A stretch of 64,000 nt of DNA from Chara braunii (Eukaryota > Plantae > Charophyceae), in the NCBI GenBank assembly GCA_003427395.1, contig BFEA01000013.1, forward strand, positions 1,805,827 to 1,869,826, in the 5' to 3' direction. A program made the position numbers and the translations under genes. Shown here in pieces: positions 2,551-61,394 of the stretch (positions are counted from its first letter, which is position 1; each line of letters begins with the position of its first letter). The notes under the pieces are model-generated. The model did no database searches. It was given only the letters and a program-made list of their open reading frames with translations, and had not been told where the DNA came from.

Positions 2551-3048
2551 TGAGGCTCCGAGAAGCCTGCCTTACCACTATAATAATAAATACTACTGTA
2601 ATAACGAAGATCAATGTGGTAAGAGGAGCGAGGCTCCGAGAAGCCTGCCTTACCACCATAATAACAACGATCAATGTGGTAAGAGGAGCAAGGCTCCGAG
2701 ANNNNNNNNNNNNNNNNNNNNNNNNNNNNNNNNNNNNNNNNNNNNNNNNNNNNNNNNNNNNNNNNNNNNNNNNNNNNNNNNNNNNNAGAGGAGCAAGGCT
2801 CCGAGAAGCCTGTCTTACCACTGAAATAACTAAGATCAATGTGGTAAGAGGAGCGAGGCTCCGAGAAGCCTGCCTTACCACTGCAACAACAAAAGAAACA
2901 AGTAAGATAAGAGTAAGCGAGGTTCCGAGAAGCCTGCCTTATCACTACAACGATAAGAAAAAGGTGATAAGAGTAAGCGAGGCTCCGAGAAGCCTGCCTT
3001 ATCACCACAATGATAAGAAACAGGTGATAAGAGTAAGCGAGGCTCCGA
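2551..3048 (+). repeat. ~60-bp tandem stem-loop array in LTR A (resumes at 10382-10465)
   Basis: Unit GTG(G/A)TAAGAG(G/TA)AGCGAGGCTCCGAGAAGCCTGCCTTA(C/T)CAC plus A-rich linker; GGTAAG/CTTACC covaries with GATAAG/CTTATC. Confidence 0.9.
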
Positions 3049-6000
3049 TGTTGGTGCGGATACCCTTATAAAGGTACTCGCACTGGAATTTTGCAGTTGA
3101 CAGAGAAATGGGTCGATTCATAATTAAATGGGAAGACCCCGCAAGTCGCAGGGGTTCGCGGACTAAGGATTCGGCGGTAACATCCAGAATTAGAGAGTGT
3201 GCGGGCGCACAGGTTTGAGGCGCGCGTGATTTTTTCCTCTTTGATCGCAATGGAAGACGTGGCGTGGATTCCGGTCGACGTGCTTCATTATAATAGTTGT
3301 TTGTTTTGATTAAACTGACTAACCTATGGGCGTTCTTTTCTCTAGTCCCGCGTGGTATGGTGGACGGTTCAGTGAGCCTGTGTGGACTTACGCGGAATCC
3401 AGATGATGGGACCTGATGGATTTGGCTAAGGACGGGTAGCCGCGGCGAGGCCGGTAGGCTGACGCGAGTTTTTGGGTGGTCTTTTGTGCGAGTGTGGGCC
3501 GGGAAGTGGCATAGGGTGTTTCCTTGGACCCAAGAGCCGGGCGCTACCTCTTTATTAGGAGATTCAAGCCCACTAGTACCAGGCTTGAGTTTAGCCCTAT
3601 AGGTTACAGCATCGGACTGGTACACCGCAGACGCAGGGATCGAGGCCAATAACATGCAGTAAGGGAGCGGAGGAGCGAGGCGAAAAGGGCTTGAGGGGTT
3701 GATGGGCCTGTAAGGCCATCCCCCTCGCCTTTTGCTACTGCGGGGGCCGCGGTTTCCGCCCGACTACTGCACGCTTGGCAGTCGTTATATATCTGTATAT
3801 GTATAATTTGTTTATTGTGAGTTTTTGTTATTAATTTTTTTTTTTCTATTACGCCCGTGTGTGGGCGCGAAACCGCGGCGGGTACACTCGTGAACTGTGA
3901 GATACGGGCAGGTGTTCGCCCCAGAGGGTGGGGCTTGATGAGTAGCACCAAACAGTTTGGATAGCCTAGGGCCGCGCAGGATCCGACAGGCCGCGAGCTA
4001 CTGTCACGGGCAAGTCCTTCGGGACATCTCGAGAGAAATTGGAACGATACAGAGTAGATTAGCCTGGCGCCCGTACGTGGTCGGCGCGTATAAATTGGAA
4101 GAAGGCCCGGGGCGCCGGGGCTTGGCTGTTTGGGCAGTTTCAGGCTTTTTTTTTTTTCCACATTTTGTTGTGGAATCGGGCGCTGCGTAGGGGCTGTGCC
4201 AATCGAGATGGCGCTGAGGACAGTGGGCGGGTCAGCGGAGATGATGACGACGAGGGCGGTTAGCGAACGAACCTGACCCGAGAACGGGACGAGGTGCGCC
4301 CGGAGGTGAAGACGAGGAAGGGACTACAGCGGGTCGGAGCTAGCGAGCGGGGCGGAGGTATGATCGAGGTGGGGGACGAGTGAAACCGGGCGCAATATTG
4401 CGTCGGGTGCCTTCGACTTTGAGGAAGGCAGCAAAGGATGGAGACAAGGGTGAAGGAACCCGAACACGACTCTGTGCCGGGTGCATTCACTATGAGGAGG
4501 GTGAGTGGCGGAGTGAACCCGGAGGGATCCCTACGCCGGGTACATGCGCAGAGCAGCGAGGCGCAGTGGTAGAAGGAAAAGGAGGCTGAACCCGGACGGG
4601 AGAACGGGCCAGGCACGTGTGGATCGAAGAGAGGGATGGCGGAGCTGAGTGGGGCTATGGCGGAGCGAAAAACGCTGATCTCGGCAGATTGTTGACTAAA
4701 TCAAGCTAGGAAAGAAAGGAGATAGGGGTTTCTAATGATGGCGAATACAGATCTTTGGTTAGTTTGAGTGATAGGTTAGTAGACGTGGACTTAGTAGCGA
4801 AACGGGCTGCGCGCGGGGTGTAGAGGAAGCCGGATATGGCAGAAGGAAAACACGATACGGGCGGATTGAACTGTTAAGACGGGGTTTCTGGGGCGGGCAG
4901 CCGCGAATACGAGGCCAAATCAATGTGAGAGCTAGTAAAAAGAAAGGTTGAGCGAGAGTATAGGAAGCGCAGCTATGGCCAAAGTTGAAGGGCGCTCGAA
5001 CCCAACCGTGCCTTGGTAAAGACGAACGAGTGGAGGCTCACTTCGAGGGTTGAGTGAATCTAGCCGTATTTACGGGCAGATTCAGTCAATCCTGGACGTC
5101 ATATCGAGTGGGCAGTATGGGCTGACCAAGAGGCTGGAGACTTACCTGCTACTCGGAGTGCTACTAGTTCTGTCGAGAGAAGGGGCCTCATGTTAGCTCC
5201 GGTAGGCACGAATGAAGGAGCGGGAGTCGGAAGGGAACCAAGCCTCGAGCTACATCCTTGAGTCGTGCCTCGGTGTGACAGATGCGCAAGGGCAAGGGTC
5301 AGTGGGTAAAGGCACGACGGACGACACATATACGCAGAGGGAGAGAGAGAAGGCTCGTCTAGGACAGGTGATAGGGGAGGAAATAAGGACCGAGCTCCAG
5401 TGTACCCGTCCATGCTCCAGTGCCAAGTTCGTTTCTGCTGCATGAGGGACGCCTAGTTGCGCAGCGCGCGACAACTACTAGTCCCGCCTATGATTACGGC
5501 CGCCACCACGAGTGAAAGGTTTGCGCTACTCAAGATCCGAAGTCGAGCCCTAGCCTGTAGATGCGAACCGACATGTCAAATGTGGGGTGAATCTGAGCTA
5601 CTGGTTGTGTTGATGCTGGTATGGTTACTGCTGACCTGCACCGCTGTATGCGACTGGAGTTGCAGACAGGGCATAAATTACTGTTACTGGCTACCGTCAC
5701 GAGTGCCTATTGAGTGTGAGGCTCAACTGTGGACTGAGTGTGGGCTGCAGGAGCCGGCAACTAATGCTGTTGCTGGTGATCGCCGCTGGGCAAAGTAGCC
5801 GCTGACTGGTGCGTCCGGGCACAGACGACGGCTGCTGCTGCTGATGACCATGGCTAGACCATGACTGTATACTGCGCATTGGTTGTTACTATCGAAGACA
5901 GTTACTAAGGTTGCCCCTCATTGCAGGGGATCATCGCTGCATATTGCTGCTGGCGACAACTGTAGCTGGCTATACAAACTACGACAAGGCCTACGTACTG

Positions 6001-6634
6001 TGTGTGAGGATTATTGTCCGCTGTAAGCTGTATGTGGTATGTCGCCATAGTTTGGTGTTGAATGTTGCATATTGTTGTGCATTGATGCCCACAACTGGCC
6101 ACACCTGCGAACCACTGATACCACTGATAGGGCGTGAGCTACTGCCGCCGGCAACCGCTGGTGTTGCTGTTAACTGCTGTCAGATGCTGCTGCTGAGAAT
6201 TGGGTACGGAATGTTACCCTCGTTACTGGTTGCCACTACGTATGGCTGTAGCCCCTAAAGGCTGAGGCAAGTTGTTGGGTGGCCACAAACGAGCCAAGGA
6301 GAGGCGTTGAGGCTCGGGGAAGGGACTAGACCGGACAAGAAGGAGGATGGCGTTGCAAGTTAGGGGATCACGAGGGGTTTGATTTCCAGCAATCTGACGC
6401 CGGATTGACCAAGCTGTCATACTGCTTGACCACCATTGCGGGGTCCTGAGGCGCACGAAAATTACAAGGCCCTCTCCTGCGAGTCTGAGTGCACCTCTCT
6501 TGGATCTGAGAGTCTCAAAGCTTCTCCTTCTGCCCTTCTTACTCTAAGTCTAGTCTGTTGGATCTGAGAGGAAGGCGCCAGGCGGGATTGCAACCCGTAG
6601 GACCACAGCAAGACTCTGTGGGGAGTCATCCCAC

Positions 6635-6697
6635 CGATTGCGGGAGCTCTGTCGGAACTCAGGAGGAGTTCTGGAGGCAGGGAACTGACAGGTAACC
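6635..6697 (+). promoter_or_regulatory. Conserved LTR hairpin plus 5' splice site (CAG|GTAACC, GT at 6692)
   Basis: Homologous to 16784-16846(-), 35375-35437(-), 43131-43194 and 57680-57742, with compensatory stem changes. Confidence 0.7.
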
Positions 6698-6959
6698 ATT
6701 GCTTTCCCTCTATACACCTAAGCTATAACCCTTATCTGTATTTCTCATTGCATCTCTGACTGGATATATGATGCACAACCCTACTTTTTTTTTTTTTTTT
6801 TTGACTTTCAGAACACTGAACACGACTAAGTAAAGGAATGTCTGTTCAAGTTTCAGTTTCAACTTTATTGATTGTGTGAATTCAGATTGCTGAAAAGAAC
6901 TGCATTTGGGGAAAGGCAGGATGGAGGGTTGTTTTGCTTGAGGGTTGAGTGGGTCATTA

Positions 6960-8740
6960 AGGCTGGGAGGTCCCCATAAGTTTGGGGAGACGCAGTGCTT
7001 TGTTTCATTTTTTGTTTGCATGGAGAAACAGACCCTTCTATAAGTTTAGGGGGTCTGATTACTCTGGAGGCTGGGATGTCCCCATAAGTTTGGGGAGACC
7101 CAGTGCTATGGTTTGCATGGAGGGTCAGGCTGTTCTATAAGTTTAGGTGGCCTGACTGTTCTGGCTTGTGAGGGCCGACTGGGGATGACTTTTCAGGCAC
7201 CAAGTGCATTTTGTAAGTTCAGGTGCCTTGGCCGCCTTGCTTATTTTGGGTTTTCTTCTGTTTATTTTTTCTCTAAACGAGAAAGTCTGAGTTGTTCTAT
7301 AAGTTTAGCTGGCTCAGTCTCTTCCTGCTTTATTATGAGAAAATGAACTTGACAAAGGGCAGATTGTTTTGTAAGTTCAGGTGATCTAGCCCAGTGCCAC
7401 ACACAGAATGGATCAGGCATAAATTAATCACGCAGAGAGCCCAACTGTTCTGTAAGTTCAGGTGGTCTGACTCAAAGCCTCGCACATGCTGGAATCCAAA
7501 GGTTACAACTTGGCTATATTTTATTATTATTCTATCTAAAAACGAGTTAATCAGACTGTTCTATAAGTTTAGGTGGTCTAACTATAGCCTATCACAACCT
7601 GAAGAGAGTATAGCTAAGAATAAAATTGGTGGTAAACTGGGGCAGACTGAACTTAAGTTAGTTTTGTCATATGCAGTCTTAGAAGACAAAGGAGAAGACG
7701 GGTACATATAACTTGAATATCTTAAACAGTTCAGGGCGACTAGAGTGGTCTAGTCATGTGCCCAAGGAAGAGAAAAGTAGTTGTGCCCTCTGTTCGTGTA
7801 TATTCACTGACAAGTCAGGTTCATTTCATAAGTTTGGGTGTCCTGACTCTATGCCTCGTTAAGTAAGATTCATTCCATAAGTTTGGGTGGCCTGACCTTA
7901 TGCCTTATGTAAGTAGGGTATTAGGGGTTAAGTTACTAAAGGACCATGAACTATTGGTTGTTGGAATGAACTTGGATGGTGAGAGTACTTACATTTGTGG
8001 TCTGGCCTGCATGTGGTTGAGTGAGGCTGTTACCCTGGCTGAGCTTTAGTTTGATAGGTAGCTGCTTTAGTTGCTCGCCACGTGCTAGAGCGATAGGAGT
8101 TAGTTTCAATTCCTGCATTTTCTGTAGTAACTTTTTTTACTTAGGTCAATTCCTGCATTTTATGGGATCATTTTTTTTGTACTTGGCTTTGTATAAATCT
8201 TGGCAAGCTACTTTCTCTACGGGAAGCGCTGCCGAAATTTCTACAAATCCAAGGAGTTAGTCAGATTTTGACTTGTCAAAAGTTCAACTTGTCTTTCTTA
8301 TATCTGACTTAGTAAAAATCGGGGAAGTCTCCTTTTCTAAAGGGAGTGCTGCCCAAATTTTTGTTAATTCAGGGAGTTAGACAAAAATTGGACTTTGAGA
8401 AGTCAAATGTTACTTTTCAATTCTGGACTTAGCCTTGTATAAATTTTGGAATAACACTTTTCTAGAGAGAGTGCTGCCGAAATTTCTGCAAAACTAAGGA
8501 GTTAGTTAAATCTTGTCTAAAGTTGAACTCAAGTTGTCTTTTGAAGTTCATATCTGACTTAGTATAAATCTGGGAAGTCTCCCTTTCTAAAAGGAATGAT
8601 GCCCAAATTTTTACTAATTAAGGGAGTTAGACAAAATTGGACTTTCCAGAATTAAAGTTTATTTCTGCTTTCATATTTTGGACTTATATAAATCCTGGAA
8701 AGACATTTTCCCTACAGGAAGCGCTTCCGAAATTTTTAAA
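6960..8740 (+). repeat. Degenerate stem-loop arrays in LTR C
   Basis: About ten hairpins with TAAGTT loops (6960-7900), then about five ~120-bp units AAAT..GG.AAG..CTTT.CTA..GG.AG.GCTGCC.AAATTT (8190-8740). Confidence 0.7.
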
Positions 8741-11700
8741 AGGAGATCGATTATATTTTGACAGGTGACAATTTTTTATAGTCCACTCTGTATGGGGGAG
8801 ATTCTGCCATGTTGCTTAGAGGTAGGCTTAGATATAGTTGACTGGATGATTTGGATAAGATCACGATATGAAGATTGTTCTCCATGGACTTATAGATTTA
8901 GCCGGGGGCATTGACATGTCATGTATTACAGGTCCTCTTGATCGTTTGACTCAAGGTCCGGACTAGATTCAGCTTGATCCCTTGAGGGTCATCATCTGTT
9001 ATCATTGATAACAGGTCGGTTGCCGATTCGTCGGTCTACGACTCAATTCCAACTCACCCTCCACACTCAATCTAAAAGGCTTTAGCCCTAGTGATTTTCA
9101 TTGTTTCATTAAGGTTTCACCCATACTTTTATTGAATGGCCATTTAACAAAGGTACTGAGTATTTAATCAAGGTTAGTTGGACAAGAGGTTGGGGCGTGC
9201 ATGGCTAAAGCGAGGGGTATGAGTGTCGAGAATGGTTGAAGTTGACCCCGTGTAGTGCATGGACTTTCTGGTTGAATCTTTGATGTGATTGCAGGTATGC
9301 TTGGTGATTCGGACTTGGGATTTGATTGTCTGCGAGTGTTTCGTGCGGTCTATTGCGACCGCACGTAAGGGTTAAACAAATTATGTGTTCGAGAGAAAAG
9401 GGAGATCCTCTTTTATCCTTTGCTTTTTAGAGATTTTTATAGTCGGACGTTGGTCCTGGACCGGGTTTCAAGGTCCTTGTCCAGAACATCCCAAGCCCTA
9501 GACTCTGTAGGAAGGAATTTGCCCCCGTGCAGAGCCTATTTGCCTTGCCAACCGAGACGCTCAGACCAAAGGCTGGAGGTCTCGCGGCGGCTGCACGACT
9601 ATTCCTTCAGCCGTGCAATGTCGTGAGGGACTAGACCCTCCCGACACTTCAAGTCTGACACTTGAGTGTCATAAGCGGTACTCGGATCCACGAGGGACCG
9701 CTTGATTATGGGCACTACATAGTACGCCATCATTGCGACTGCTTGCGTACACTTGCATTGGGAATCAGTATGTGTAGGCCCTGTGTCCGCGCGGTTTTAT
9801 ACTAAGTCTCGCACGCGACGCCTATCCGATTTCCGCATCGGAAAGTTATGGGATAACTACTAAAGAGACTAAAAGTGTTGTCGCGTTGTTCGGTGTGTGT
9901 GTGAGTGTTTTACTGTTGCGTTCGTGGAGTGGTGTATGCGTGGTGAGTGGGATATGTCCTAGTCGACCGACGACGAGTCGCGCTTGAGACCTCAGCCCCC
10001 CAAGATGTCGGTTCTCGTGCGGGTTCGATAGAGGCGTACTACTGCGCGTACCCCCTATGCTACAGCGAACGAGAAACGCCCTCGGTTGGTCCACCTCTGC
10101 GATTGCAACTGATTAGCTTTCGTACCGTGGACTGGTAGCTCGGCGGGGATACGCCCCACCAAAGGGAGGTGACAGCTCCCGTAAGGTGGAGGTAAGTCGC
10201 GCCTCACGTAGGCCCTATCCTGTCATAGGGGTTCGCGAGAGGTATGGCTGGCGCACTCGGTCGGAGCGGCTTGCGGAAGCTCCATGTATATTTGCGACGA
10301 GGATTTAGACCAACTTCTGCGTGACGCGGCCGGGAGGGTCTCGCGCTGCCCTGGTGCGATGCCGGACCGATGCGCTCGACACGGAGAAACCTGCCTTATC
10401 ACCACAACGATAAGAAACAATGTGATAAGAGGAGTGAGGCTCCGAGAAGCTCGCCTTATTACCATTTTGCCTTGCTCCAATGCAGGATAATGAATAGGAG
10501 AAGTAAGACCCTCGAGGTCTGTCCTATCACAAGTAGACGATGGAAAAATCCCGAGCGGTCTACCATATTACTACTAACCTTCTCAATAAAATTGGATCAA
10601 TCAATTACCAACAGACTGTTTCTGATTCTATTGAGGAGAGGATACTGAGATCTTGACCCTGAGAGACTTATCACTTTATCTTGGAACTTCTGATTTGTTT
10701 TTTATCATGTGATCCTTCTCCAAGATGAATTGACGACATTGTTTGTGCTTGTCATGAAAAGAACCAAGAAAAGGGGTTGTGATAAACAACCTTAAAAGAT
10801 AACTTATATAGGATCACTGGGTCGGAAGAGCTGGGAATGAACTTTGTTCATTACCCAAACCCATAAGACAACAGCCTGACAGTTAGGTAAGGATAGAGGC
10901 TAGACAGTGGGTCACCGGTGAGCATCGATCTTTAGGTCACAAATCTAGAATGAATTATCTAAACCTTAGGATAAGAAAAAGGATGTTAAGTTTCTTTCAG
11001 ACTGTGTTGTGTCTATAGATTTCATCACACTTGGAGAAGATTACGGAAGAAAACCGTAAGGAACTGCAATTCTGTTATCATTGGATAACAGGTCGGTAGA
11101 ATTCCGACTCAACCTCCACATGGCTTGATACCCACACCTAAGACAAAACCTAAAAAAGAAAATTGACAGATCTTCCCCTGTACCTTAACCTAAATTGTCG
11201 AAATCATCTCTCAAAGGTCTTTGAAAAGGTGAAGGGCTCGATAATAGGACCCAGGAGCAAGAAGGAGTGTTGTTTTCAAGGTTTTGGGAAGTGAGGAACT
11301 TAATATGAATAGGTTAAACGCTGACGCTTGTAGCGCATTCTGTGTTTTGCATTTGTATGCGTGTATGTGTTTTCTTGCATCTGCACAGGTGTTGGGCAGT
11401 GAACTGTCTTTTCCGGACTTAAAGTCACCTGCGATATCCGGACACAAGGCACTGCAATTGTGAAAGTGAGATCTACCGCTTATTCGCTCTTTTGATATAC
11501 ATATGTACTTATATATGTCTATGAACAAGTCCACACTCTGGTCTGAGCTTAGGAAGGTTATTGTCTGGGATTTTGTTGAGATCTTGAGAGAGTGAGAGAT
11601 TACAAAAGGGTTTGGACTTTGACATTTTCTCGTATGGTCAACGAAGGAACATAGATTCTTTATCATATTTAGCTAATCGTGGAAGATTGTCCGGAATAGT

Positions 11701-12096
11701 CGACTTGATAAGAATAGTTGGTCCGAGGGAGTTAGTACCTCGAGCCACAATATACAAGTCAGTCTTAAGGCGTTCTACCGCGCGTATGCCTATGCTACGG
11801 CGATGGAGAAAAACGTCATCGGTTGGCCTATCTCTGCGATTGTATGTAAGAGTCTTCGCACGTGGGTCGGTAGCTCAGCAGGGATCCGCCCGCCTAAGGG
11901 ATACTCCCGCAGGTGGAGGTAAGTTGTACCTCACGGGATCTCTAACCTGTCGTAAGGATTCGCGAGAGGTATAGCACGCGCGCACGGTCGGAGTGGTGTT
12001 TTGCATAGGTGACAAAAGACTCTTGCATGATATGACCGTGAGGTCCGACACAAGAATTACTTTGCGTCTGGGTGTGGGACCGCCGCGTGCAACAGG

Positions 12097-12116
12097 TGCC
12101 GCCGTTGCTAGGGATC
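12097..12116 (+). promoter_or_regulatory. Primer-binding site of element A (tRNA-Asp)
   Basis: TGCCGCCGTTGCTAGGGATC matches TGGCGCCGTTGCCGGGGATC (complement of the plant tRNA-Asp 3' end) at 17/20, 2 nt after the LTR end. Confidence 0.85.
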
Positions 12117-13570
12117 TCGCTTCCAAGCCGAGGTCCTTAGTGAACTGACTCGGGTACGGTAAGTCGATGATTCAGGCAAAACGACAAATACAACTTATTA
12201 GGCTAAAACTTGAGTTACAAATGTGAAGAGTGGGCTGGTAATATAGGTGGGGCTCCTATCGGCAAGAATCACCTTAGAAAGTAGATAGTCCTCTGAGAAT
12301 AATTTGAGGTTATCAGGGGCCGTTCAAAGGACAAAAGTGTTAGGTCACTCCTAGGACGACATTAATTAAATTGTGTCCGCACTTTAAATGACACTCAAAG
12401 GTCGTGGGACCGTTGCTGGGAGACGAAGAGGCGGAAGGTTAGGAAAGGCAGCCGAAAGAACCATAAATTTAACCAAAGAACGAGGAAACTGGGAGGAAGA
12501 AGCAGATGAAGGACCAGGGGAGAAGTAGGAATGGTTGAGAGCACGTAAACATCAGGAGGAATGGCGTGAACGCACTCCTTCACCAGGGAAGATGGCTTAC
12601 TATTCCTATAAATATGAGAGGCGTTACGACGCGTCTCCACCACGTTTTGAATCACCTAGCCGACCTCGCTTCGGACCTTACACACCGCCGTCTTCCTCGG
12701 CTAAGGAGAGACAACTGACGATCCTTCCTCTGCCACGCTTATCAACAGCACAGTCAACGCCTCACGTTCCGGACCCTCCTGTTGTTTCCCAATCTACGTC
12801 GCCTGACAAGAGATTATGTATCTCTCTTGATGTTTTTGATATGCCACATAGAAATTTGTTGATTGGTATTCTACTCATTATATAGAAAAATTATATGTAA
12901 AAAAAAAAACGAAAGGGCACGATAATGGGACAAAATAAAGGTGGTCGGTTGATCCTGAGCTTGACAAACAAAACTGTCAGTCTTAGTGATATTTAAATGA
13001 AGGGAAAGTGGGTTGGATTGTGTTGTGTAACAAATAGGCGGAGTATATCAACAAGAACAAGATGACTTCAGCTCGGTACCAGTTCACGATCAGAGAGCCC
13101 AGACAAATGAGGAGCGGTCTAATGATGAATTTACCAACTCATCATGAGAAGAATGAGGAAACATGGTATTGTTGGAGGAAGTCTATGGGGGAATATGCCC
13201 TCGTCTGGATTGAGTCTGGATGGATCAAAGGTGAAAGTTGTGCAATAGAAAGGGTTACATTGTATATTTCAGCGGAATATTTGCAAGCTATCATAATAAA
13301 TTTAGCCTTAGGAATAGATCGATCTCTTTCGAGGCTAATGTGGTTTGCGGAGTCCGCACTCAATACTCGGAGCAGGGACGCGCATCTGAATGGGTTTGAA
13401 AGAGTTATAAGAACAGTGAAAGTAAAAAGTGCTTTCGAACTCCTTCCGCCGGCCTCATACCTAAGAGGAACCCTTCCTATGTTTATCGTGAATGAAGCCT
13501 TCAGAGGGAGGTCGCGAGTAGAGAAAGCTACGGAAGCCACATTGGCAGTGCCCGAATGGGGATATCACGA

Positions 13571-16500: not shown

Positions 16501-17113
16501 ACCCTGTCAATCATCTTGGTTAGCTAATACAACCAGCGTGACGACCCCTCGGGAGCCTCCATCATACTGCCTTATGTTTCAGAACCAAGCAGACTAGGTT
16601 CTTTTTTGGTTCTCCTAGGTTCCTTTCCTGAATCAGGCATGATTTTTACTTCAATTATATAGTCTTTTTGCTTTCGATACTTTTAGTCCTGAAGAAAGTC
16701 ATAAACAGTATATCATACAATCACACAAGCAGTCTGATAGAAGGGCGTAGCCTGTAAGGGTATATTGGAAAGGAATAGGTGACGCGTACCTTATGGTTCC
16801 CTGCCTCCAGAGTTCCTCCTGAACTCCGGCAGAGCTCCCGCAATCGCCCTGACCACGTCAAATCTATACAATGATTTTCTGACTTCTTAGCAAGATCAGA
16901 AACATCCTAGTGATCATACATCACTTAAACATGTATAGCTGAAGAGATAGGTTTTAGAGAGGATCAATCAACGATAAGAGTGGAGGAAGACGGAGGAGGT
17001 GTGCACCATCACGAACGCGATGATGTTTCTTCTCCTTCCTAATGCCTCACAATCCTCGTCAGTTTAGTCCTCAGTCAAACAAATAATAATAAAATCAATA
17101 AACACCAATACTG

Positions 17114-45200: not shown

Positions 45201-46850
45201 AGCTATGGGTTAAGCCTACCACTAAGTGTGCTTCAGCGCACAGGGGCCAAGACTCATAAGGTTTGTCCTTGTCAAACAGGCTTCAGTAACAAGTGGATAA
45301 ATCCTGAATGGTCTGTCATACCATCACTAACTTTCTCCGCGATCTGCATCGTTCAGTCCTAACTTACTATCTCTGATTCTACTGGGAGGTAAAGTGAGAT
45401 CTTGACTTAGAGAAGCTTATCACCCTTTGAAATTCTTATTCGAGCTTTATCACGTGATTCCTTTCTCAATTGAATGAATTGTATTGCTTGTGGTGGCTAG
45501 GGACATGGGGCTCATAAAAAGAAGGAAACTAAGTACAATCGCAGGGAAGCAGGGGCGAAGAATGAGCTTTGTTCGTCGCCTGGACCGACTGGGCAGCGAA
45601 CTGACAGTTAGATCAGGATAGAAGTTAGGTAGTAGGTCGACGACATGCAAAAAACTTTTGGTCACAAGTCTAGAAGGGATCTTGTAGGACCCAAAGAGAG
45701 GATGCTGAGATTCTTTTGGACCATGTTGTATCTACAGATTCATCACTCTTGGAGAGGACTACGGAAGAAATCCGTAAGGAACTGCAAATTTTGTTATCTC
45801 TGGATAACAGGTCGGTATAACTCCGACTCGACTTCCACATGGCTTGATACCCACACCTAAGACAAGACCTAAGAAGGGATTAGATAAATCTTCCTCCTGT
45901 ATCTACACCTAGATTTGGCCAAATCACACTCAGAGGTCTTTGAAAATGTGAAGGACTGGGGTAAAAGGAGTTGGGTTTAGAAAGGAATATTGTTTTCAAG
46001 GTTTTGGGGCGTGAGTGGCTTGCTATGAATGGGTTAAAGGTTGATGCTTTTAGCGCATTCTGTGTCTGCATCTGTATGCGTGTATGTGTTTTCATTGCAT
46101 CTGTACAGGTGTTGGGCATTGAATTATCTTCTGAATTTTGGGATCATCTGGGGATATTCGGACAACAGGTCACAACAATTGTGAAAGTAAGGTCAACCGC
46201 TCATTCAACTCCCCTAATTTACATACAACCGCTCATTCAACTCCCCTAATTTACATACATACTTATATATATATATATATGTGAGTGAGATGATAGTTGG
46301 TCGGGGCTCAGAAAGTCATCTGTCTAGGTTCTGTTTGAAAGAATGGGAGAGTACAAAGGGGTCTGATTCTGACCTTCTCATATGGTCAACAAAATAAACA
46401 TAGAGTCATTATCACAGTTAGCTAAGCGTAGAAGACTGTCCGAGAAAATTGACCTGATTAGATAGTCGGTCCGGGGAATTAACACCTCGGGGCACGACAC
46501 ACGGGTCAGTCTTAAGGCGTTCTACCACGTGTATCATGCCTATGCTACGACGATCGAGAAAACGCCTGGCTGACCTACCTCTGCGATTGCATGTAAAAGC
46601 CTTCGCACGTGGGTTAGTAGCTCAGCAGGGATACGCCCACCTAAGGGATGGTGACAGCTCCTACGGGTGGAGGTATGTTGAACCTTGCGGGACCCTAACC
46701 TGTCGTAGGGAGTCGCGAGAGGTATAGCACGCCCGCACGGTCAGAGTTGGTATTGCGTAAAGTCACAAGAAAACTCCTGCGTGATACGACCGTGAGGTCC
46801 GACACAAAAACTACTTTGCCTCTGGGTGTGAGACCGCCGCGCGCGACAGG

Positions 46851-46870
46851 TGACGCCGTTGTCGGGGATC
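46851..46870 (+). promoter_or_regulatory. Primer-binding site of element E (tRNA-Asp)
   Basis: TGACGCCGTTGTCGGGGATC, 18/20 match to the complement of the tRNA-Asp 3' end. Confidence 0.9.
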
Positions 46871-49674: not shown

Positions 49675-49839
49675 GCAGAAGAAGGACACTTCAGGGACGA
49701 TTGTGAGGTTTTTGCCAGATACATTAAGGCAAGGATGACTGAGTTTGATGCACAAGGGAAGTTGGTTGCCAACGTTGGACAGACAATCCCCAAGACATCC
49801 AAGGATGACATGATATAACTTCACCAGATACTGGGGTTG
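49675..49839 (+). pseudogene. Remnant of the C-terminus of the extra ORF in element E
   Basis: AEEGHFRDDCEVFARYIKARMTEFDAQGKLVANVGQTIPKT aligns with TEEGHFRYDCTILAEYIRKGMVRFDSRGRLVTSNGQTIPKT of element A. Confidence 0.85.
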
Positions 49840-51403
49840 GATAACACCTTCCTAGTTTAGAAACAAGTGGGTGTATGAACTTCTTAATAAATTGAGGTGT
49901 TTGTTGGGTAAGAGAGAACATGGATAAGTAGAGTGCAGTCTGAAAAGAGGACAAATGTTTTTTCTTTGAGTTTTGATAGGATAAAGGTTTAGAGTAGATG
50001 ATAGTATAGGAAAATGCATCGACATTTGAGGATAAGGAAGAAAGAGATGAGTCGCAAGTCTGACTTATTATAACATACGTTATATTTATATATATATCCA
50101 AAGGGGATGAGCTGGTGACCACGAACACTTTCACGTTATGAGTGAATCCTTGTCTACGATTGAGTCTTTTGTAAGTCAGTATCTCCCTTTGTCTATCACT
50201 ATTGAACTCATTTGAGACCTAGAGATGGTGGTAGAGGAACGAGCGGATCAGTACCTTGTGTGAAAGTCAGTGAAAGGTTGTACGACCAAGATCTTGGAAG
50301 GATTGATTATATGTTTGAGAAACCATGCTACGACATGGACAAACCTATTTCAATGAGTTAAAACGTTTGCGATCATTTTTGAATGGGATGTTTGTTTTGG
50401 TGGTTTCAGACCAGCAAAGAGTCAACAAATATTTATTTCATTTAAAAATAATATTTATATATATATATATATATAATACAAATGACCCCGAGGTACGTGC
50501 CTCACCGAGCTATGATCAAAGACTTGGAGGGCACAACCCTGAGTGGAAGTCTGACGATTGCTCAATTTATTAAAAATCTCATTTATTTGGTTTATTTTAA
50601 AAACATCGTTCATCAATTTCAAGGGTTAACCTGAGGGCATAAATTACCAAGCCTATGGTGGAAAATTGGCATTGTTGGGACGTAACTCCCAGTGTGGGCT
50701 GCTGACCTAGTGTAACCAGGCAGCGGACCCTTCGACTATGGCCTCGAAGAGAAACTAGAGGGGTGACCAACCCAATGAAAGGATCTATTCAGGTGGATGT
50801 CGAAGGGGTCGAGATTAGTCTTGAAATCTATAATTTTAAAGATAGGATGAATATCTCATCGTTGCGCAACCAACGGGGATAACCACCGATAAGCAACAAC
50901 GCGGTGGGTCGCAGCTCCGGCCTGATCAGCAGGACTGTGGTGGGTCATGATGGAGACCGTTGCCCTCCTGTATTAGGCTTCGAGCAGGACGACAGACATT
51001 TTTGGATTGTGATATCAAGATTTGAACACCCAAGGTCTCGGTTAGGACCTGCGTTTGACGGGATGAGTTCGTACGCGAATACCAACCCTGAAAACAACCA
51101 GCGAATACCTGGGTCAAAAGTCTAAGGGTATGGGGAAAGGAAAGGCGCGTTGTCATACTTAACTATTTCATATACTGTAGTACTGATCAAGTATCCCCAC
51201 TTCAAGTCATTCAATTATTTTATAATGTGGGAGACCCGGGTTAGAATCTCTGCAGTAGTAATGAAAAGTGAGGTGACGACGTCAATCCTAAACCACATCT
51301 CATTCCAGGATTCGGATTTGACGATTTGCTTGTCGGAAAACATCTTTTGTTTGCATATAGTTCTTCAGGCGACGGGGACGTCGCTTAATGGGGTCTGGGA
51401 TAC

Positions 51404-53469
51404 TGTCGGACCAAATACCCTTACAAGGGTATTTGACCATGCTTTTACATTCGACACGGTGACGGCATCGGCTACCATGATGGAGCCAGTCTGGAATGGA
51501 AAGGGTGTGCACGCTTGGGCGTGACGCTCGAAACGAATCCCTCGTCCAATGAGGTCGGGGAAAAATCGGTGAGAAAATTTCGATAAGTATGCACGCGCGT
51601 TATTGTGACGTGCGCTCTAATGGTTAAAATCGGTAATAATACCCTTCGACTGAAGAGGTCGAGGGATCGATTGGGTTAAGTGTTATGACGGGTAAACCTA
51701 CAACCTACACCATGACGGAGGCTTAAGCGTTCGTACGATAGTCAAGTTAAAATTAATATACGCCTCGACCGTACGGGCGGAGCAATTAACAATGAGTGAT
51801 CGTCAGGTAAAGGTAGCACCCTGAAATGCTAAGAGCTTGGCCCAAGCGGTATACCACGAGTACGACTAAGGGTCTTACCCGAGTTCCCGCATATGGCGAA
51901 GCGTTTGTCTCTTGAACGGTGACTTCCTGACTGCGCGGCACGCCTGCCTTTACTAGGTATGGTACCAGCCTACCTGTTACTTGAGTGTTTTCCCCGTTGT
52001 TCTGAGTATGCAGGTTTACCTCGCTGCCTTATAACTTTTCTGCCGCGTCCCTCAAGGCCACGACTACAGGTAAGTACTTGGCCTACGGGCCTTCTGAGCA
52101 ACTAAGTGCCCTTGCGGGTCACACACACGCCCAAGCCGACAGACATGCAGACCGGCATGCGTACGCACACACAGACTTGGAAAACAGCCTCAGGCCACTA
52201 AGTAGGTCGAGCCCTCGATCCTCTATATGTACCTGAGCGGCTCCTTTCTTAACCAGAATAGGAGTTAGCTCAGTTGGTTAGGTATAGATTGACAAGCGGG
52301 AGACACAGGGATCGAGGTGTACCGCCGCTGAGACTAGCTCCTTTTGAAAAAGGAGCCCTGCTTTTCTTTTTGCCCAGTTTCGAGTGGTCGGGGCTTGAAC
52401 CCGCGATCACAACATTAAGAGTAGTTATAGTTAGGTTGTTTTCCCAACAATTGGTACGACGGAAGAGTTAGCAGTTGAATTTTTTTTTTTTTTTCTTTAT
52501 TTTATTATTATTAGATTCGATTTTTAATTTTAAATTCTTTATATGTATGTATATTTTTATTTCTTTTAATTTTTTTAATCCCGTAGTTACTCTCCACAGA
52601 TTTTCTTTAGTGAATCTGTGTAAGGAAGCCGGGCAGATTCATTCAGCAAAGTCTGCTCGATTCAAAAAATGATGTCGAGGACTTGGTCGGCGCGATTTGG
52701 ACTGAGTGCTCGTCGGATGATCAGCGAACGCACGAGGAGCGGCGAAGATGGTCGCGCGGTGGTAGCAAGAGGGGAGACGAGCGGAGAGAAAGGAGGAGTA
52801 TTGCGCGGAAGAAGGGCGACACACGGGAGAGTAACGGGAGGAGTAATGGTAGGAGAAGATAGAAGAAGAAGAAGAAGTAGGAGGGAAGGAGGAGGAGGAA
52901 AAGAAGAAGGAGGGAGAAAGGAGAGGAGGAGCCGAGGGAAAAGGAAGAGCGGGCGCGATGGGAAACAGCGGGCGAGTAGGAGGTGGTGCGGGGGGATCAA
53001 CTAAGAAGATGCACGGTAGAAGGTAAGTGCGGGAAGCAGCGGAGATGACGAGCGGGATAGCGGAGAGGAGGAAGATGGCCGCGCACGCAAAGAAAGTAGT
53101 ATCGGAAGAAGAAGAAGGAGAAGAAGGAGAAGAAGAAGAAGAAGAAGAAGAAGAAGAAGAAGAAGAAGAAAAAAGAAGAAGAAGAAAGAGGAGGAGGAGG
53201 AAAAAAGTAGAGGGGGAAAGCACTTACCTGATCGTGCGGTCAGATGATTGCGGCTCCGACGACGACGACGAGAACAAACTAACAACGTGCCGACGACGAC
53301 GACGACGACAACAAGCCAACGACGTGCCAACGACGACGACGATGACAATGGCGATGGCAAGGGAGCAAGAGAGAGAAAGCGGGTAAATCTCCTACCCCAA
53401 GGCTAGCCGCACAGTACTTGGATCGGAAGACTCATTCCACTTTTGCTCGTCCAATCGTGGAGTGTGTGT

Positions 53470-53552
<83 letters not shown>

Positions 53553-53821
53553 NNNNNNNNNNNNNNNNNNNNNNNNNNNNNNNNNNNNNNNNNNNNNNNN
53601 NNNNNNNNNNNNNNNNNNNNNNNNNNNNNNNNNNNNNNNNNNNNNNNNNNNNNNNNNNNNNNNNNNNNNNNNNNNNNNNNNNNNNNNNNNNNNNNNNNNN
53701 NNNNNNNNNNNNNNNNNNNNNNNNNNNNNNNNNNNNNNNNNNNNNNNNNNNNNNNNNNNNNNNNNNNNNNNNNNNNNNNNNNNNNNNNNNNNNNNNNNNN
53801 NNNNNNNNNNNNNNNNNNNNN

Positions 53822-53863
<42 letters not shown>

Positions 53864-54110
53864 TAGAGAGAGAGAGAGAGAGAGAGCTTATCAGTCTCTA
53901 GCTCGCGCTTCGCCGCGTGCTACCTGGATCGATAAAACGAGCAAATCAACAAGTGGTTGTGTATATTGGCACGTTTCAGCGGAAGATTCATTCCGTTTTT
54001 GCTCATCCTATCGATGGAATGTGGGTGATCGTATCGATGGAATGTGTGTGATCCTATCGCTGGAATGAGAGTGATCCTAACGAAGCAATGTGACTGATCC
54101 TAACGATGGA

Positions 54111-54158
<48 letters not shown>

Positions 54159-57100
54159 AAGAGAGAGAGAGGAGGGATGGAGACAGGTGGCATCTGTGTG
54201 TGGGGTCGAGTTTGTGAGTGTAGGGCGAGACACACCTGGTGCTGGAAAGAGTGCGACATCGGTCGCCATGTGCTCGTACTTCGGGAATGCTGTTGATATC
54301 ATCTTTCGACTTCGTAGTATAGGCTAGATAGGATCCGCCACATGTAGTTTGGGCACTGAGCGCCAGATAGGATATCAACTTTAGTTCTTCGTTGATGATG
54401 GCGGGAATATTTCAGCATTGTCAATTATGAACTCTTTGTGTGTTCTTATTTGGTGGATCTCGTGATGCAATGATGCTGTTGGTTCGAGGTCAAGACTATC
54501 TGGACTCGTACGTATGATGTTGTTTGATTACTGAAGATCACTATTTTTTTTTCCTTCATATTTATATATTATTATTATTATTATTATTACTATTATTATT
54601 ATTATCAGGTGCAATGTGGTTCTTGAGTCCACGTGGCATCTGTGTTGGGGATTGAGGTTGTGAGTGAAGGAGGACACGTACCTGGTGGAGGTGGAGGTCG
54701 GCATTGGTGTTGACATCATCATCACTCGCTGGTAGTCAAGTTGTCTGGTTGTTGTCATACTGTAGTTGTAGTGATAGGCTGTAGAGTAGATAGGGCGCCT
54801 AGCGCCATTCAGAAGAGAGAGCTACATTGGGTTATGCTGTTGGTGTTGCCCTGTTGAGCTTGGACATTGACTCACAATTCTTCTGTATCATTCTCAAATG
54901 GATGGTTACTCGGTTCCATTGTGCTATCTGCTCTTGCTTTCGCTACTTGGACTTCAGTGAGATTTTGCGATTTGGATTTTTGTGCTTCGTCCACATTCAT
55001 GTTCCTTGCATATTTTCATTTTTATTATTATTATTTTATTATTTTTATTATTTTTATTATTATTATTATTATTATTTGGGTCGTAGCGAAACGAAATCGA
55101 GAGAGAAAGAGACGAGGATGATGACGCGAGGGCACGTACCTCGCATCGGAGATGGTCTGCCTTGAGTGACATCTTCGAGTACTTCGCTGGCTGCTGACGT
55201 CTGCAATTGCATTGTCAATTTGTAGGCAAATAGTAGTTGTGCGGACGGTAGTCTGGGCGCTGAACGGCAGATAGGCAGTCGACATTGGTTTGTTGATGAT
55301 GATGAGACTATTCCAGCATTGTCAAATATAGGTTTTGCTGTGTTCTTATTTGGTGGACCTCGTGATGCGATCCTGCTGCTGGTTTTTTGAGGTCACGACA
55401 GTCTGATCTTGTCTATATACTGCTGTTTGATTTATGAAGTTGCCATCTTCATGGCATTTTTATTATTATTATTATTATTATTGTGCAATCGTACTCGCTT
55501 TCATTTACACTTTTCATGCATGTGAATGGCAGCACAGCAAGCTGGCGACATGCGCCGACTCAATACTCAGAAATATGGCATCCAGATAAGAATCCACTTT
55601 CACTGGCAATGGCGACTCAACGCCAAAACAACTCTCTGTTCACATATACCAGATCGTCGTGGTTATCCTACACGCGGTAATCTGCACTCACGCAACACAC
55701 ACAGCACACATGCACACTAACTACAGCTATGGCAGTTATGGCTGCCTCTACCCTATCGCTGTGCTACGCCCTTCTCTCTCGCCCACTGCGTCCGCCGGGT
55801 TCACTGCGGACCTCCTTGCACAAGTCGCTGTGACAGCGCTTCCGCATGGCTCACGCAGGAATGAATGAAAGGCTGGGTCCTGCCTCTTGATTTATACTCC
55901 GGAAACTCGTTGGACGACCCTGTTTCTCTGGCCCACGGTGTACACAGTCTCAGACGGTACGTGTTTGACTGGACTGGACTGGCTGGACTGGGACTGATTG
56001 AGTCCTGCCGCATCCCCGGTGAGAGAAAAGAGGGGGGAGGCAAATAGGCACATATATACGGACTGTCGAACACATAGACAATCTGAAGCAGACAGCCAGA
56101 TACCGGCAACCAGACAGGCTCAACATGGACAGACACAGACCTATCGAGACAAGCACAGATGTGCAGGCAGACTGAACCAGACAGGCAGACGGATTGGGCA
56201 GTCACCAGATTGGACAGTCAGACACAGACTGTGACACAGGCACGCAGTCACACGACGACAGTCACTCTGTGACATGTAAACACATTCACTCAATGGCATA
56301 GACACGGTGACGAAGACACTGTAAACAGATAAGTACACAGTGTGACAGTCACACAGACACACAATGACACATGCACGGTGAAACACACGCATACACAGTG
56401 GGACGGACACAGTTATTGTGACATACATAGTCACAGTGGAATAAACCCAGACATTGTGACATACGCAGTCACAGTGGGACAGATACACACTGTGACATAC
56501 ACGGTTGCACCATGACCTACAGATGCACGATGACGCATAGTCTTACACGGTGCACAGACACGGTGCACGGTCACACATAGTGCACAGTCGCGTAAACACT
56601 ACACACACTGTCACTGTGACAAACACACGGATATTGTGACAGACCCGCAGATACTAAGAGCACACCTACAGGTACTGAGATAATGACGGTGACACTGTGA
56701 CGCACGTAAACAAATGGAGCAAATACAGTAAAACACTGTGACATACACAGTGACACAGGCTGTGACATACGCGGTGTGACACAGACTGTGGCATGCACAG
56801 TAAAATACAGGTTGTGGTATACACAGTGTGACAGAGGCTATAACATACACAACAAGATACAAACATTGACGCACCCAATGTCACACGAACCATGGAAACA
56901 CATTGTAAGATACAGAATGTAACATACACCGTAACGTACATAGAGAAGGCACGAATTCAGGTACACAGTCGCACACGGAGTACACGGTGAAGTGACAGTC
57001 ACTCAGTGATACATGCACCGTGACACATACACAGTAATAGCCACATAGTCACTCTGTCACACGGTGACACACGCAGTCTCGGTGACACACACAGTAACTA

Positions 57101-57282
57101 GCACCGCGACACACGCAACAGTTTGCGACATATACAGTGAGACACATACATGGTGACACACAGAGGGGGACATATACACAGAGCGAGGAAGAGAGGGATA
57201 GAGAAGGAGAGAATGAAAAAGGGGAGGAGTTATGATAAGGAGGAAACATCGACAAAAGGGGCATCTTCTTTCCCTTAGTCTG

Positions 57283-57348
<66 letters not shown>

Positions 57349-60300
57349 TGTGTCATTATTTATTTTATTATTACCGATTGTTATCGTTTGATTATTTCTA
57401 CTACCTGTGTTAGTTACTATAACTGACATGCGACATCAATACAGGGTCACAGATGAAGAGAAAACATGGGGCATTGGAGAGGGAGGTGACGCTATCCTTT
57501 TGCGATAAGTGCCCACCTCCTTCACCCTTCTCCATGCTTAACTTTGTATGGTCCTCTCATATACCTGCCTCCTCAAATTTATTCAATTGAGGGTTTGATC
57601 ACCGTTGAGTTAACCCTGACCTCGGCTAGCTCTAAGGGCCAGCAATCGATTGCATGAATTATACATGATCGATGACAGGGCGATTGCGGGAACTCTGCCG
57701 GAGTTCAGGCGGAACTCTTGAGGCAGGGAACAGTGAGATATAGGCGCTTCAACATAAAACCTAAACCCTAAACCTTAAACCCTAAACCTATAACCTCAAT
57801 AATACTAATAAATAAGACCACTTCGGGTGAGGGGTCCTTCAGGGCTAAACCCGAGGGGCAGAAAGAGAAACAGTAATGCTTGCATAAGGGAGGAGAAGTA
57901 TGACCTGTCTGGGTGAAATGGCTGGCCAAATGTAACTGATTGCTTCTGAACACAGCGATCTTGCTGTGAGGGTATTTCTTGGAAATATGGATGCGAGGGA
58001 TCAACTTCTCACGAGCATTCTCTCTACACACCGCCTAAACGATGATGGGTACCCTTGATTTGAGCTTGCTATGATCAACTGTCATGGATCAAACCGATCA
58101 TTTTTCATTATGCATATGATCCAGCGTAAATTCTCAAAACTAACAACGATTTAGGGCTCAAATGATATCAAAGGCAATAACTTGGTCCGTCGATAAGGCT
58201 TGTGTGGGGGTAAGAGTAGCAGGGTCGCATGAAGCCTGCCTTATCGGTGACTGGTCGCATAGTAAGAGTAGCAGGGTCTATGAAACGTGGCTTATCAACG
58301 ACTAGCCAAGTGATAAGAGTAGCAAAGCTCTATGAAAAGGTCCTCCCTTACCACCGATGAGCCTTACACTTGGTTAGTGATAAGAGTAGCAGGGTTCCTT
58401 GGACACCCGCCTTATTGATGGCTAGTCAGTGATAAGAGTAGCAGGGGAAGCCAGCCTTATCAGTGACTAGTCTGATATAAGAGTAGCGAGGTTTCAAGGA
58501 CACCTGCCTTATCATTGACCAATCTAACCTTCTTTCAGTGGCAAGAGTAGCAGGATTCCTTGGACACACGCTTTATTAATGACTAGCAAGTGATAAGAGT
58601 AGCAGGGGAAGCCTTCCTTATCAGTGACTAGTCTGATATAAGAGTACCGAGGTTTCAAGAACACCTGCCTTATCATTAACCAATCTAACATTCATTCAGT
58701 GGTAAGAGTAGCAGGGTTCCTTGCACACCCGCCTTATTGATGGCTAGTCAGTGATAAGAGTAGAAGGGGAAACCTGCCTTATCAGTGACTAGTCTGATAT
58801 AAGAGTAGCGAGGTTTCAATGATACTTGCCTTATCAGTGATCAGCCTCACATTCATTCAGTGGTAAGNNNNNNNNNNNNNNNNNNNNNNNNNNNNNNNNN
58901 NNNNNNNNNNNNNNNNNNNNNNNNNNNNNNNNNNNNNNNNNNNNNNNNNNNNNNNNNNNNNNTACACCCGCCTTATTGAGGTCTAACCAGTGGTAAGAGT
59001 AGCAGGGAAGCCTGCCTTATCAGTGACTAGTCTGATATAAGAGTAGCGAGGTTTCAAGGACACCTGCCTTATCAGTGATCACACTAATAGTTAGTCAGTA
59101 ATAAGAGTTGCAGGGTTCCATGGACACCCGCCTTATTGATGGGTAGCCGGTGATAAGAGTAGCAGGAGAAGCCTGCCTTATCAATGACTAGTCTAATATA
59201 AGAGTAGTGAGGTTTCAAGAACACCTGCGTTATCATTCACCGATCTATCATTTTTTTTTTTTTCAGTGATAAGAGTAGCAGGGTTCCTTGGACACCTGCC
59301 TTATTGAGGTCTAGCCAGTGATAAGTGTAGCAGGGAAAGTCTGCCTTATCAGTGACTAGCCTGATATAAGAGTAGCAGGGTCTCAATGACAATTGCCTTA
59401 TCAGTGATCATCCTAGCACTAAGTCAGTGATAAGTGTAGCAAGATTCCTTGGATACTTGCCTTATTGATGTCTAACCAGTGATAAGAGTAGCACGAAAAT
59501 TCTGCCTTATCAGTGACTAGCCTGATATAAGAGTAGTAGGATTTCAAGGAGGTTTGCCTTATTAGTGATGAGCCTTACACTCTGTCAGTGATAAGAGTAG
59601 CAAGGTTCCTTGGATACCCGCCTTATTGAGGTCTAACCAGTGATAAGAGTAGCAGGGAAAGCCTGCATTATCAAGTGACTAGTCCGATGTTAGACTAGCG
59701 AGGTTTCAAGGACACCTGCCTTATCAGTGACTAGCCATGGGTTAAGCCTACCACTAAGTGTGCTTCAGCGCACAGGGGTCAAGACCCACAAGGTTTGTCC
59801 TTGTCAAACAGACTCAAGTAACAAGTGGATAAATCCTGAATGGTCTGCCATACCATCGCTAACCTTCTCCGCGATCTGCATCGTTCAGTCCTAACTAACT
59901 ATCTCTGATTCTACTGGGATGTAACGTGAGATCTTGACTCAGAGAAGCTTATCACCCTTTGAAATTCTGATTTGAGCTCCATTACGTGATTCCTTTCTGA
60001 ATTGAATGAATGATATTGCTTGTGGTGGCTAGGGACATGGGGCTCATAAAAAAAAGGAAACTAAGTACAATCGCAGGGAAGAAGGGTCGAAGAATGAGCT
60101 TTGTTCGTCGTCTGGACCGACTGGGCAGCAGAATGACAGTTAGATCAGGGTAGAAGTTAGGCAGTAGGTCGACGACATGCACAGAACTTTTCGTCACAAG
60201 TCTAGAAGGGATAGAAGGGATCTTCTAGGACCCAAAGAGAGGATGCTGAGATTCTTTTGGACCATGTTGTGTCTACAGGTTCATCACTCTTGGAGAGGAC

Positions 60301-60772
60301 TACGGAAGAAATCCGTAAGGAACTCCAAATTATGTTATCTCTGGATAACAGGTCGGCATAACTCCGACTCAACTTCCACATGGCTTGATAACCACACCTA
60401 AGACAAGACCTAAGAAGGGAACAAATAAATCTTCCTCCTGTATCAACACCTAAATTTGTCCAAATCACACTCAGAGGTCTTTGAAAATGTAAAGGGTTGG
60501 GGTAAAAGGAGTCAGGTTTAAGAAGGAATGTTGTTTTCAAGGTTTTAGGGCGTGAGTGGATTGCTATGAATGGGTTAAAGGTTGACGCTTGTAGTGCATT
60601 CTGTGTCTGCATCTGTATGCGTGTATGTGTTTTCCTAGCATCTGCACAGGTGCTGTGCATTGAACTGTCTTCTGAATTTTGGGATCATCTGGAGATATTC
60701 GGACAACAGGACACAGCAATTGTGAAAGTAAGGTCAACCGCTCGTTCAGCTCCCCTGATTTACATACATACT

Positions 60773-60828
<56 letters not shown>

Positions 60829-61390
60829 TGAGATCATAGTTGGTCAAGGGTCAGAAAGTCATCTGTTTAGGTTCTGCTTGAAAGAATGTGAAAGTACAAA
60901 GGGGCCTGATGATGGCCTTCTCATATGGTCAACATAATAAACATAGAGTCATTATCATAGTTAGCTAAGCGTGGAAGACTGTCCGAGAAAGTCGACCTGA
61001 TTAGATAGTCGGTCCGGGGAATTAGCACTTCGGGGCACGACACACGGGTCAGTCTTAAGGCGTTCTACCGCGCGTATGCCTATGCTACAACGGTCGAGAA
61101 AACGCCCTCGGTTGGCCTACCTCTGCGATTGCATGTAAAAACCTTCGCACGTGGGTCAGTAGCTCAGCAGGGATACGCCCACCTAAGGGATGGTTACAAC
61201 TCATGTAGGTGGAGGTATGTTGTACCTCGCGGGACCCTAACCTGTCGTAGGGAGTCGCAAGAGGTATAGCACGTGCGCACGGTCAGAGTTGGTATTGCGT
61301 AAAGTGACAAGGAAACTCCTGCGTGACACGACCGTGAGGTCCGACACAAAAACTACTTTGCGTCTGGGTGTGGGACCGCCGCGTGCGATA
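51404..61390 (+). repeat. 3' LTR of element E (~10 kb including N gaps)
   Basis: Direct repeat of 37204-46848; followed by TSD GCGT. Confidence 0.92.
58208..59730 (+). repeat. Bulged stem-loop array in the E 3' LTR
   Basis: Same units as 43660-45200. Confidence 0.93.
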
Positions 61391-61394
61391 GCGT

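What the first reader, a model, noticed from the sequence alone, without database searches (positions are those of the whole stretch)
3045..61394. 4-bp target-site duplications all centred on CG
Seen: TSDs are ACGA (B, perfect), GCGT (E, perfect) and CCGA/CGGA (C). The 4 bp beside D read GCGG (only one side visible). All fit NCGN on the left flank. Established: plant LTR elements usually make 5-bp TSDs with weak preference, whereas 4-bp sequence-specific TSDs are known from insect errantiviruses (e.g. CGCG for ZAM). Inference: a CpG-directed integrase, possibly favouring methylated repeats, which would explain the nesting. The sample is only four sites.
Basis: partly seen in the sequence, partly recalled or inferred. 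Interest (0 to 1): 0.72.

Follow-up and report, generated by a model that had tools for sequence, protein, structure and literature searches.

The report
CG-targeting algal Gypsy retrotransposon family
A family of very large jumping genes, most likely from the stonewort alga Chara, duplicates four bases centred on CG where it lands; the same rule is already published for a moss family, so it is likely a property of the insertion enzyme, and nothing tested here points to DNA methylation as the guide.

Summary
Confirmed, and extended beyond four sites. The window holds five nested Ty3/gypsy elements (A-E) of one lineage with 5.6-10 kb LTRs; all 120 listed RT relatives are Chara braunii proteins. 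B (ACGA/ACGA), E (GCGT/GCGT) and C (CCGA/CGGA) have 4-bp duplications, 5-bp ones fail, and D's single flank is GCGG. In public contigs of one sample, the majority flank reads CG at -3/-2 before the LTR start (90-106 contigs a run) and at +2/+3 after the LTR end (26-34 contigs), which fixes a 4-bp NCGN target. Three more single junctions are NCGN too. Membership in Phygy could not be tested by sequence, and size, primer site and an extra ORF differ. The methylation idea found no support: no chromodomain or methyl-reader in the integrase, no CpG hypermutation between E's LTRs (27/295 vs 70/873, p=0.54), and target neighbourhoods of average CG density. Best reading: integrase-intrinsic CG readout.

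The parts
3045..3048 (+). Left target-site copy of C (CCGA), inside a 60-bp tandem unit of A's 5' LTR
3049..10381 (+). Element C, solo LTR of 7,333 bp (TG...CA)
10382..10385 (+). Right target-site copy of C (CGGA, one change from CCGA)
10386..12094 (+). 3' part of A's 5' LTR, ending in CA; its 5' start was not found in the window
12095..12116 (+). Primer-binding site of A (tRNA-Asp type; the tRNA identity is recalled, not tested)
13567..13570 (+). Target-site copy of B (ACGA)
13571..19216 (-). Element B, solo LTR of 5,646 bp, in A's 5' untranslated region
19217..19220 (+). Target-site copy of B (ACGA)
19400..25900 (+). Broken gag-pol of A: Gag, protease region, RT, RNase H, integrase (H2C2 zinc finger, DDE core); several stops and frameshifts
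28146..30268 (+). Extra, broken Gag-like ORF after the integrase (coiled coil, CCHC knuckle)
31816..31833 (+). Polypurine-tract region of A
31834..32162 (+). First 329 bp of A's 3' LTR; the last four bases (GCGG, 32159-32162) are D's visible flank
32163..37203 (-). Element D, 3' part of its LTR; the last four bases (GCGT, 37200-37203) are E's left target-site copy
37204..46848 (+). 5' LTR of E (9,645 bp)
46849..51403 (+). Internal region of E (4.6 kb): primer site, A-like untranslated regions, polypurine tract, no gag-pol match (non-autonomous)
51404..61390 (+). 3' LTR of E (9,987 bp; ends TA instead of CA)
61391..61394 (+). Right target-site copy of E (GCGT)
61395..64000 (-). Continuation of D's LTR, running off the window

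Best explanation
These nested Ty3/gypsy retrotransposons insert with a four-base duplication centred on CG, and the choice is likely made by the integrase reading the CG bases and their bendability, probably without regard to methylation. Shown: TG...CA ends, the 4-bp NCGN duplication, a DDE integrase without a chromodomain. Inferred: the two active sites cut four bases apart around a CG on the two-fold axis of the complex; a 4-bp stagger needs a sharp central bend, which favours pyrimidine-purine steps, and base contacts narrow that to CG alone. Inferred: nesting follows from the family's abundance and its huge LTRs, because CG sites occur about every 25 bases everywhere in this DNA.
For: 4 of 4 window sites NCGN. 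Majority flank before the LTR start ends ACGT, GCGT, ACGT, ACGT in 4 of 4 runs (103, 90, 106, 93 contigs); after the LTR end it begins ACGT and ACGG in 2 of 2 runs (34, 26 contigs). CG at -3/-2 and +2/+3 fits only a 4-bp duplication. With no preference, CG is the majority at both places in 0-2.7% of 150 simulated sets per case; the printed agreement values fit about 75-100% CG if agreement is the mean majority share. Of 12 joint rows shown (34 not shown), 5 touch an LTR end; they are 3 distinct junctions and all 3 are NCGN (TCGT, GCGT, ACGT; for the last base of the first). 7 of 7 CG is unlikely under a bend-only model (CG is 17% of YR steps; 3.7e-6). No chromodomain or methyl-binding family in 8 of 8 family or related proteins scanned or in 11 window ORFs. 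Retroviruses with 4-bp duplications favour central YR steps (PMC4422553, section 6). Purified ZAM integrase binds its CGCGCG target oligonucleotide directly (PMC2527525 passages). CG counts within 100 bp either side of the three empty sites are 8, 9 and 8 in 204 bp, the window average.
Against: No biochemical test; the base-contacting residues are not identified. The read-based support is majority letters, not counts, from four runs of one sample, which may be the sample behind this assembly. It covers the A/E-type ends only; B's end gave no row among the 12 shown (350 not shown). Three of the seven single sites and D show one flank only. Methylation was tested only indirectly, and one LTR pair gave the mutation rates.
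Confidence: 0.75

Rival explanations
1. The integrase prefers methylated CG and so steers new copies into silenced repeats.
For: All four window insertions lie inside other copies of the family. Chara has a chromomethylase gene (PMC11540031 passages), so its repeats may be methylated.
Against: No chromodomain or methyl-reader family detected. C/T differences between E's LTRs are 27/295 at CG against 70/873 at CHH (p=0.54), so no trace of long-term CpG decay; CG observed/expected is 0.78. Six of seven visible target-site copies keep CG and the seventh changed by a transversion. Targets sit in average CG density.
Confidence: 0.1
2. Only DNA flexibility is read (any pyrimidine-purine step), and CG is over-represented for another reason such as nucleosome position or later loss of other insertions.
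For: Central YR preference is general for 4-bp integrases (PMC4422553); 4-bp duplications in plants have GC-rich centres in pooled data (PMC6911290 passages).
Against: The retroviral YR enrichment is only about 63% over random, whereas 7 of 7 single sites here are CG and none TA, CA or TG; CG is the rarest YR step in the window.
Confidence: 0.1
3. The pattern is chance or a boundary-calling artefact from four hand-picked sites.
For: Small in-window sample; C's copies differ at one base; E's 3' end is TA; the assembly has artefacts nearby.
Against: Boundaries are fixed by shared terminal motifs in five elements and by E's paired LTRs; the same CG appears at both ends in other loci.
Confidence: 0.03

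Closest known systems
Phygy (non-chromovirus Ty3/gypsy of Physcomitrella patens; Neumann et al. 2019, PMC6317226)
   Same: 4-bp duplication with the NCGN motif; no chromodomain; Ty3/gypsy domain order.
   Different: Phygy: 7.7-10.0 kb in total, tRNA-Trp primer in 81%, no extra ORF, one moss species. Here single LTRs are 5.6-10 kb, E is 24 kb, the primer site is of the tRNA-Asp type (identity recalled) and a Gag-like extra ORF follows the integrase. Sequence kinship untested.
Ylt1-like / SN_1006 fungal Ty3/gypsy lineages (PMC2864245, PMC3248453 passages)
   Same: The nearest non-Chara RTs found (32-36% identity, unnamed) share an insert after YxDD that generic gypsy RTs lack; the top Atlas structure match is a Basidiomycota cluster. 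Calling these relatives Ylt1-like is recalled, not shown by a call.
   Different: No target-site rule for these fungal elements was seen in the passages read; the original Ylt1 paper was not held.
ZAM errantivirus of Drosophila (PMC2527525)
   Same: Gypsy-type integrase with a CG-containing target that it binds directly.
   Different: Target is the longer CGCGCg plus a second site; an insect errantivirus; here only the two central bases are fixed. Kinship not tested.
Athila, Selgy and TatI (PMC6317226, Additional file 5)
   Same: Athila: tRNA-Asp primer, large size, extra ORFs. Selgy and TatI: 4-bp duplications.
   Different: Athila makes 5-bp duplications (95%); the paper names a sequence preference only for Phygy; TatI has an extra archaeal RNase H, not seen here.

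Membership tests
Ty3/gypsy LTR retrotransposon | LTRs with TG...CA ends, primer site, polypurine tract, target-site duplication | tested here: met
Ty3/gypsy LTR retrotransposon | Domain order RT - RNase H - integrase | tested here: met
Chromovirus | Chromodomain at the integrase C-terminus | tested here: not met
   none in 8 of 8 proteins scanned or in window ORFs; A's own integrase tail is interrupted, so this rests mainly on relatives
Phygy | 4-bp duplication, NCGN | tested here: met
   reference value
Phygy | Clusters with Phygy in RT-RH-INT trees | not testable with these tools
   reference FASTA too large to read; no moss-named relative returned
Phygy | tRNA-Trp primer site (81%) | tested here: inconclusive
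   site read; it matches a tRNA-Asp 3' end as recalled, but no tRNA set of this organism was available (one search found none in the window)
Phygy | Short element (7.7-10 kb), coding region fills the interior, no extra ORF | tested here: not met
   LTRs 5.6-10 kb, E 24,187 bp, extra Gag-like ORF in A
Athila (OTA) | 5-bp duplication | tested here: not met
   0 of 5 matches at 5 bp for B, C, E
Tat | Additional archaeal RNase H domain | tested here: not met
   no RNase_H family beyond the RT-type RNase H
Ylt1-like fungal clade | Clusters with named Ylt1-like elements | tested here: inconclusive
   shares a post-YxDD insert with unnamed relatives; no named Ylt1 sequence in hand; only two generic outgroup rows
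Errantivirus (ZAM, gypsy) | env gene and clustering with insect errantiviruses | not tested
   the extra ORF looks Gag-like, not Env-like; no tree with errantiviruses

The most novel reading that the evidence does not exclude
The integrase senses the methylation state of the central CpG itself, without any reader domain, making this a retrotransposon that uses DNA methylation at the cut site to hide in silenced copies of its own family.
Probability: 0.08. Interest if true: 0.75.

Novelty: new member of a known kind. Interest (0 to 1): 0.36.

Why it matters
Sequence-specific landing is rare among plant LTR retrotransposons; the main survey names Phygy as the only exception. A second case, in a very abundant family of a streptophyte alga, raises the testable idea that NCGN targeting is an old trait of one integrase lineage reaching from fungi-associated elements to algae and moss. 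In practice, annotation tools that assume 5-bp duplications and LTRs of a few kb will miss or mis-trim these elements. No paper on this for Chara was found, but the library lacks most subscription journals.

Tried and rejected
No whole genome is held for this window, so paired flanks could not be counted genome-wide. A pattern scan for the LTR start in metagenome contigs found 0 matches. Related-locus scans: viral contigs gave no relative in three scans; metagenome contigs gave 7 loci, one short lineage member without LTRs and six distant elements, so no target site outside this genome could be read. The search of protein representatives never ran because its queue was full, which leaves lineage placement open. 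Cluster look-up gave no organism names for 10 of 10 non-Chara relatives. Two searches for a Chara methylome found nothing relevant among the papers listed. PMC5014426 and PMC7466625 passages gave nothing on target sites of the relevant families. Rejected: 5-bp and 6-bp duplications; CG-island targeting; the extra ORF as a methyl-reader (only coiled-coil and CCHC matches, Gag-like motif). In the LTR mutation count I dropped E's middle region, which holds a 3,034-bp identical block; with it and looser context rules the rates were CG 51/714 and CHH 101/2068. Earlier findings of this scan held none on this family or motif.

Full report
Anatomy. Self-comparison and terminal motifs show five related LTR elements. 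A is a broken autonomous element: end of the 5' LTR at 12094, primer site, gag-pol at about 19.4-25.9 kb, an extra Gag-like ORF, polypurine tract, and the start of the 3' LTR at 31834. C (7,333 bp) is a solo LTR in A's 5' LTR, B (5,646 bp, minus strand) a solo LTR in A's 5' untranslated region, D (minus strand) sits in A's 3' LTR and runs off the window, and E (24,187 bp; LTRs of 9.6 and 10.0 kb around a 4.6-kb interior without gag-pol) sits in D. The RT-RNase H region has 305 relatives at E <= 1e-30 among 4,929 candidates; all 120 listed are Chara braunii proteins. The host is therefore most likely Chara; this was not shown directly.

Observation. The duplications are as reported: ACGA/ACGA (B), GCGT/GCGT (E), CCGA/CGGA (C), and GCGG on D's one visible side. 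At 5 bp all three pairs score 0 of 5. C landed in a 60-bp tandem unit whose intact neighbours read CCGA at the same place, which confirms the 4-bp length. With 3.9% of 4-mers CG-centred, 4 of 4 has a chance of 2.4e-6, or 3e-4 allowing any shared centre.

Beyond four sites. The four runs found are one sample of one study and may be the source of this assembly; what they add is other loci, not another individual. Before E's LTR start at 51404 the loose ends of 103, 90, 106 and 93 contigs have majority letters ending ACGT, GCGT, ACGT and ACGT, while the rest of the 30 letters is noise (agreement 0.36-0.37). Behind A's LTR end at 12094 the majority begins ACGT (34 contigs) and ACGG (26 contigs, two of the four runs laid). 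CG at -3/-2 on the left and +2/+3 on the right is compatible only with a 4-bp duplication. In simulations from window sequence, no preference gives that majority in 0-2.7% of 150 sets per case; the agreement values fit roughly 75-100% CG, assuming agreement means the mean majority share. Table 5c shows 12 of 46 rows; five touch an LTR end, they are three distinct junctions, and all three are NCGN. B's end gave no row among the 12 loose-end rows shown, so this extension covers A/E-type ends only.

Mechanism. The integrase has an H2C2 zinc finger and a DDE core; its best solved relatives are foamy-virus and Ty3 integrases. No chromodomain or methyl-binding family appears in the eight family or related proteins scanned. 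For retroviruses with 4-bp duplications, a flexible pyrimidine-purine step at the centre is favoured, by about 63% over random (PMC4422553; abstract and sections 6 and 14 read). That explains why the centre is YR but not why it is always CG: CG is 17% of YR steps here, and 7 of 7 has a chance of 3.7e-6. Base-specific contacts are therefore inferred. ZAM integrase gives a precedent for direct binding of a CG-containing target (PMC2527525, passages; the text has no hit for 'methylat').

Methylation and nesting. Three indirect tests gave no support. C/T differences between the diverged parts of E's LTRs are 27/295 at CG, 31/226 at CHG and 70/873 at CHH; CG against CHH p=0.54, CHG against CHH p=0.013. 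CG observed/expected is 0.78. The three empty sites have 8, 9 and 8 CG in 204 bp, the window average. A site that occurs every 25 bases cannot by itself cause nesting; abundance and LTR size are the simpler inference (over 9,000 contig pieces a run were laid on 5.2 kb of E, though depth is no copy number). Against my reading: none of this measures methylation, and a preference at the moment of insertion need not leave a mutational trace.

What is known. Neumann et al. [quoted passage not shown] Jedlicka et al. 2019 (PMC6911290, passages) also report GC-rich centres for 4-bp duplications. So the rule is published for a moss lineage. Whether this family is Phygy's relative is open: the paper's element table and FASTA could not be read and could bear on it, and no moss-named relative came back. 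By size and extra ORF it fails the Phygy description, so I do not file it there. The nearest non-Chara RTs (32-36% identical, unnamed) share an insert after YxDD that two generic gypsy rows lack, and Atlas neighbours include Basidiomycota clusters (leads only); I recall such sequences as Ylt1-like (background: PMC2864245 and PMC3248453 passages). A search for 'Chara braunii', 'gypsy' and 'target site duplication' gave one paper, on Penelope elements (listing only); 'NCGN' with 'retrotransposon' gave two, only one relevant; one search listed none that names Chara among 25. The Chara genome paper (recalled) was not seen.

Verdict. A real, strong 4-bp NCGN target rule in an abundant giant-LTR Ty3/gypsy family; it works like Phygy, membership unproven. 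New member of a known kind; interest 0.36.

Noticed in passing
window 40042-43075 and 54591-57624: E's two LTRs share an exactly identical 3,034-bp block inside 90-93% identical flanks: recent gene conversion or an assembly collapse.
   Followed up: partly
window 27463-27783: A mate-pair library junction adapter (27606-27643; identity recalled) between two copies of a 144-bp stretch: an assembly artefact in A's integrase tail.
   Followed up: yes
window 25900-27460: About 1.5 kb of non-LTR sequence with an internal inverted repeat (26220-26580 against 26831-27182) interrupts the end of A's integrase; its ends are unclear because the artefact adjoins it.
   Followed up: no
window 3049-10381, 13571-19216, 37204-46848, 51404-61390: LTRs of 5.6-10 kb with internal tandem arrays and microsatellites, longer than the 'up to about 5 kb' given in PMC6317226.
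   Followed up: partly
window 28146-30268: Extra ORF after the integrase carries a motif found upstream of RT, in the Gag region, of a second Chara subgroup, plus a CCHC knuckle: a likely second Gag-like gene, also present after the integrase in P0007.
   Followed up: partly
window 37204-39223 and 45200-46848 against the 3' LTR: C/T differences are somewhat higher at CHG (31/226) than at CHH (70/873; p=0.013, one of two comparisons, one LTR pair) and not at CG: a possible trace of CHG methylation.
   Followed up: partly
window 3061-3075, 19189-19203, 31846-31860, 37216-37230, 51416-51430: All LTR starts carry a conserved near-palindrome about 12 bases inside the end, a candidate integrase or replication signal.
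   Followed up: no
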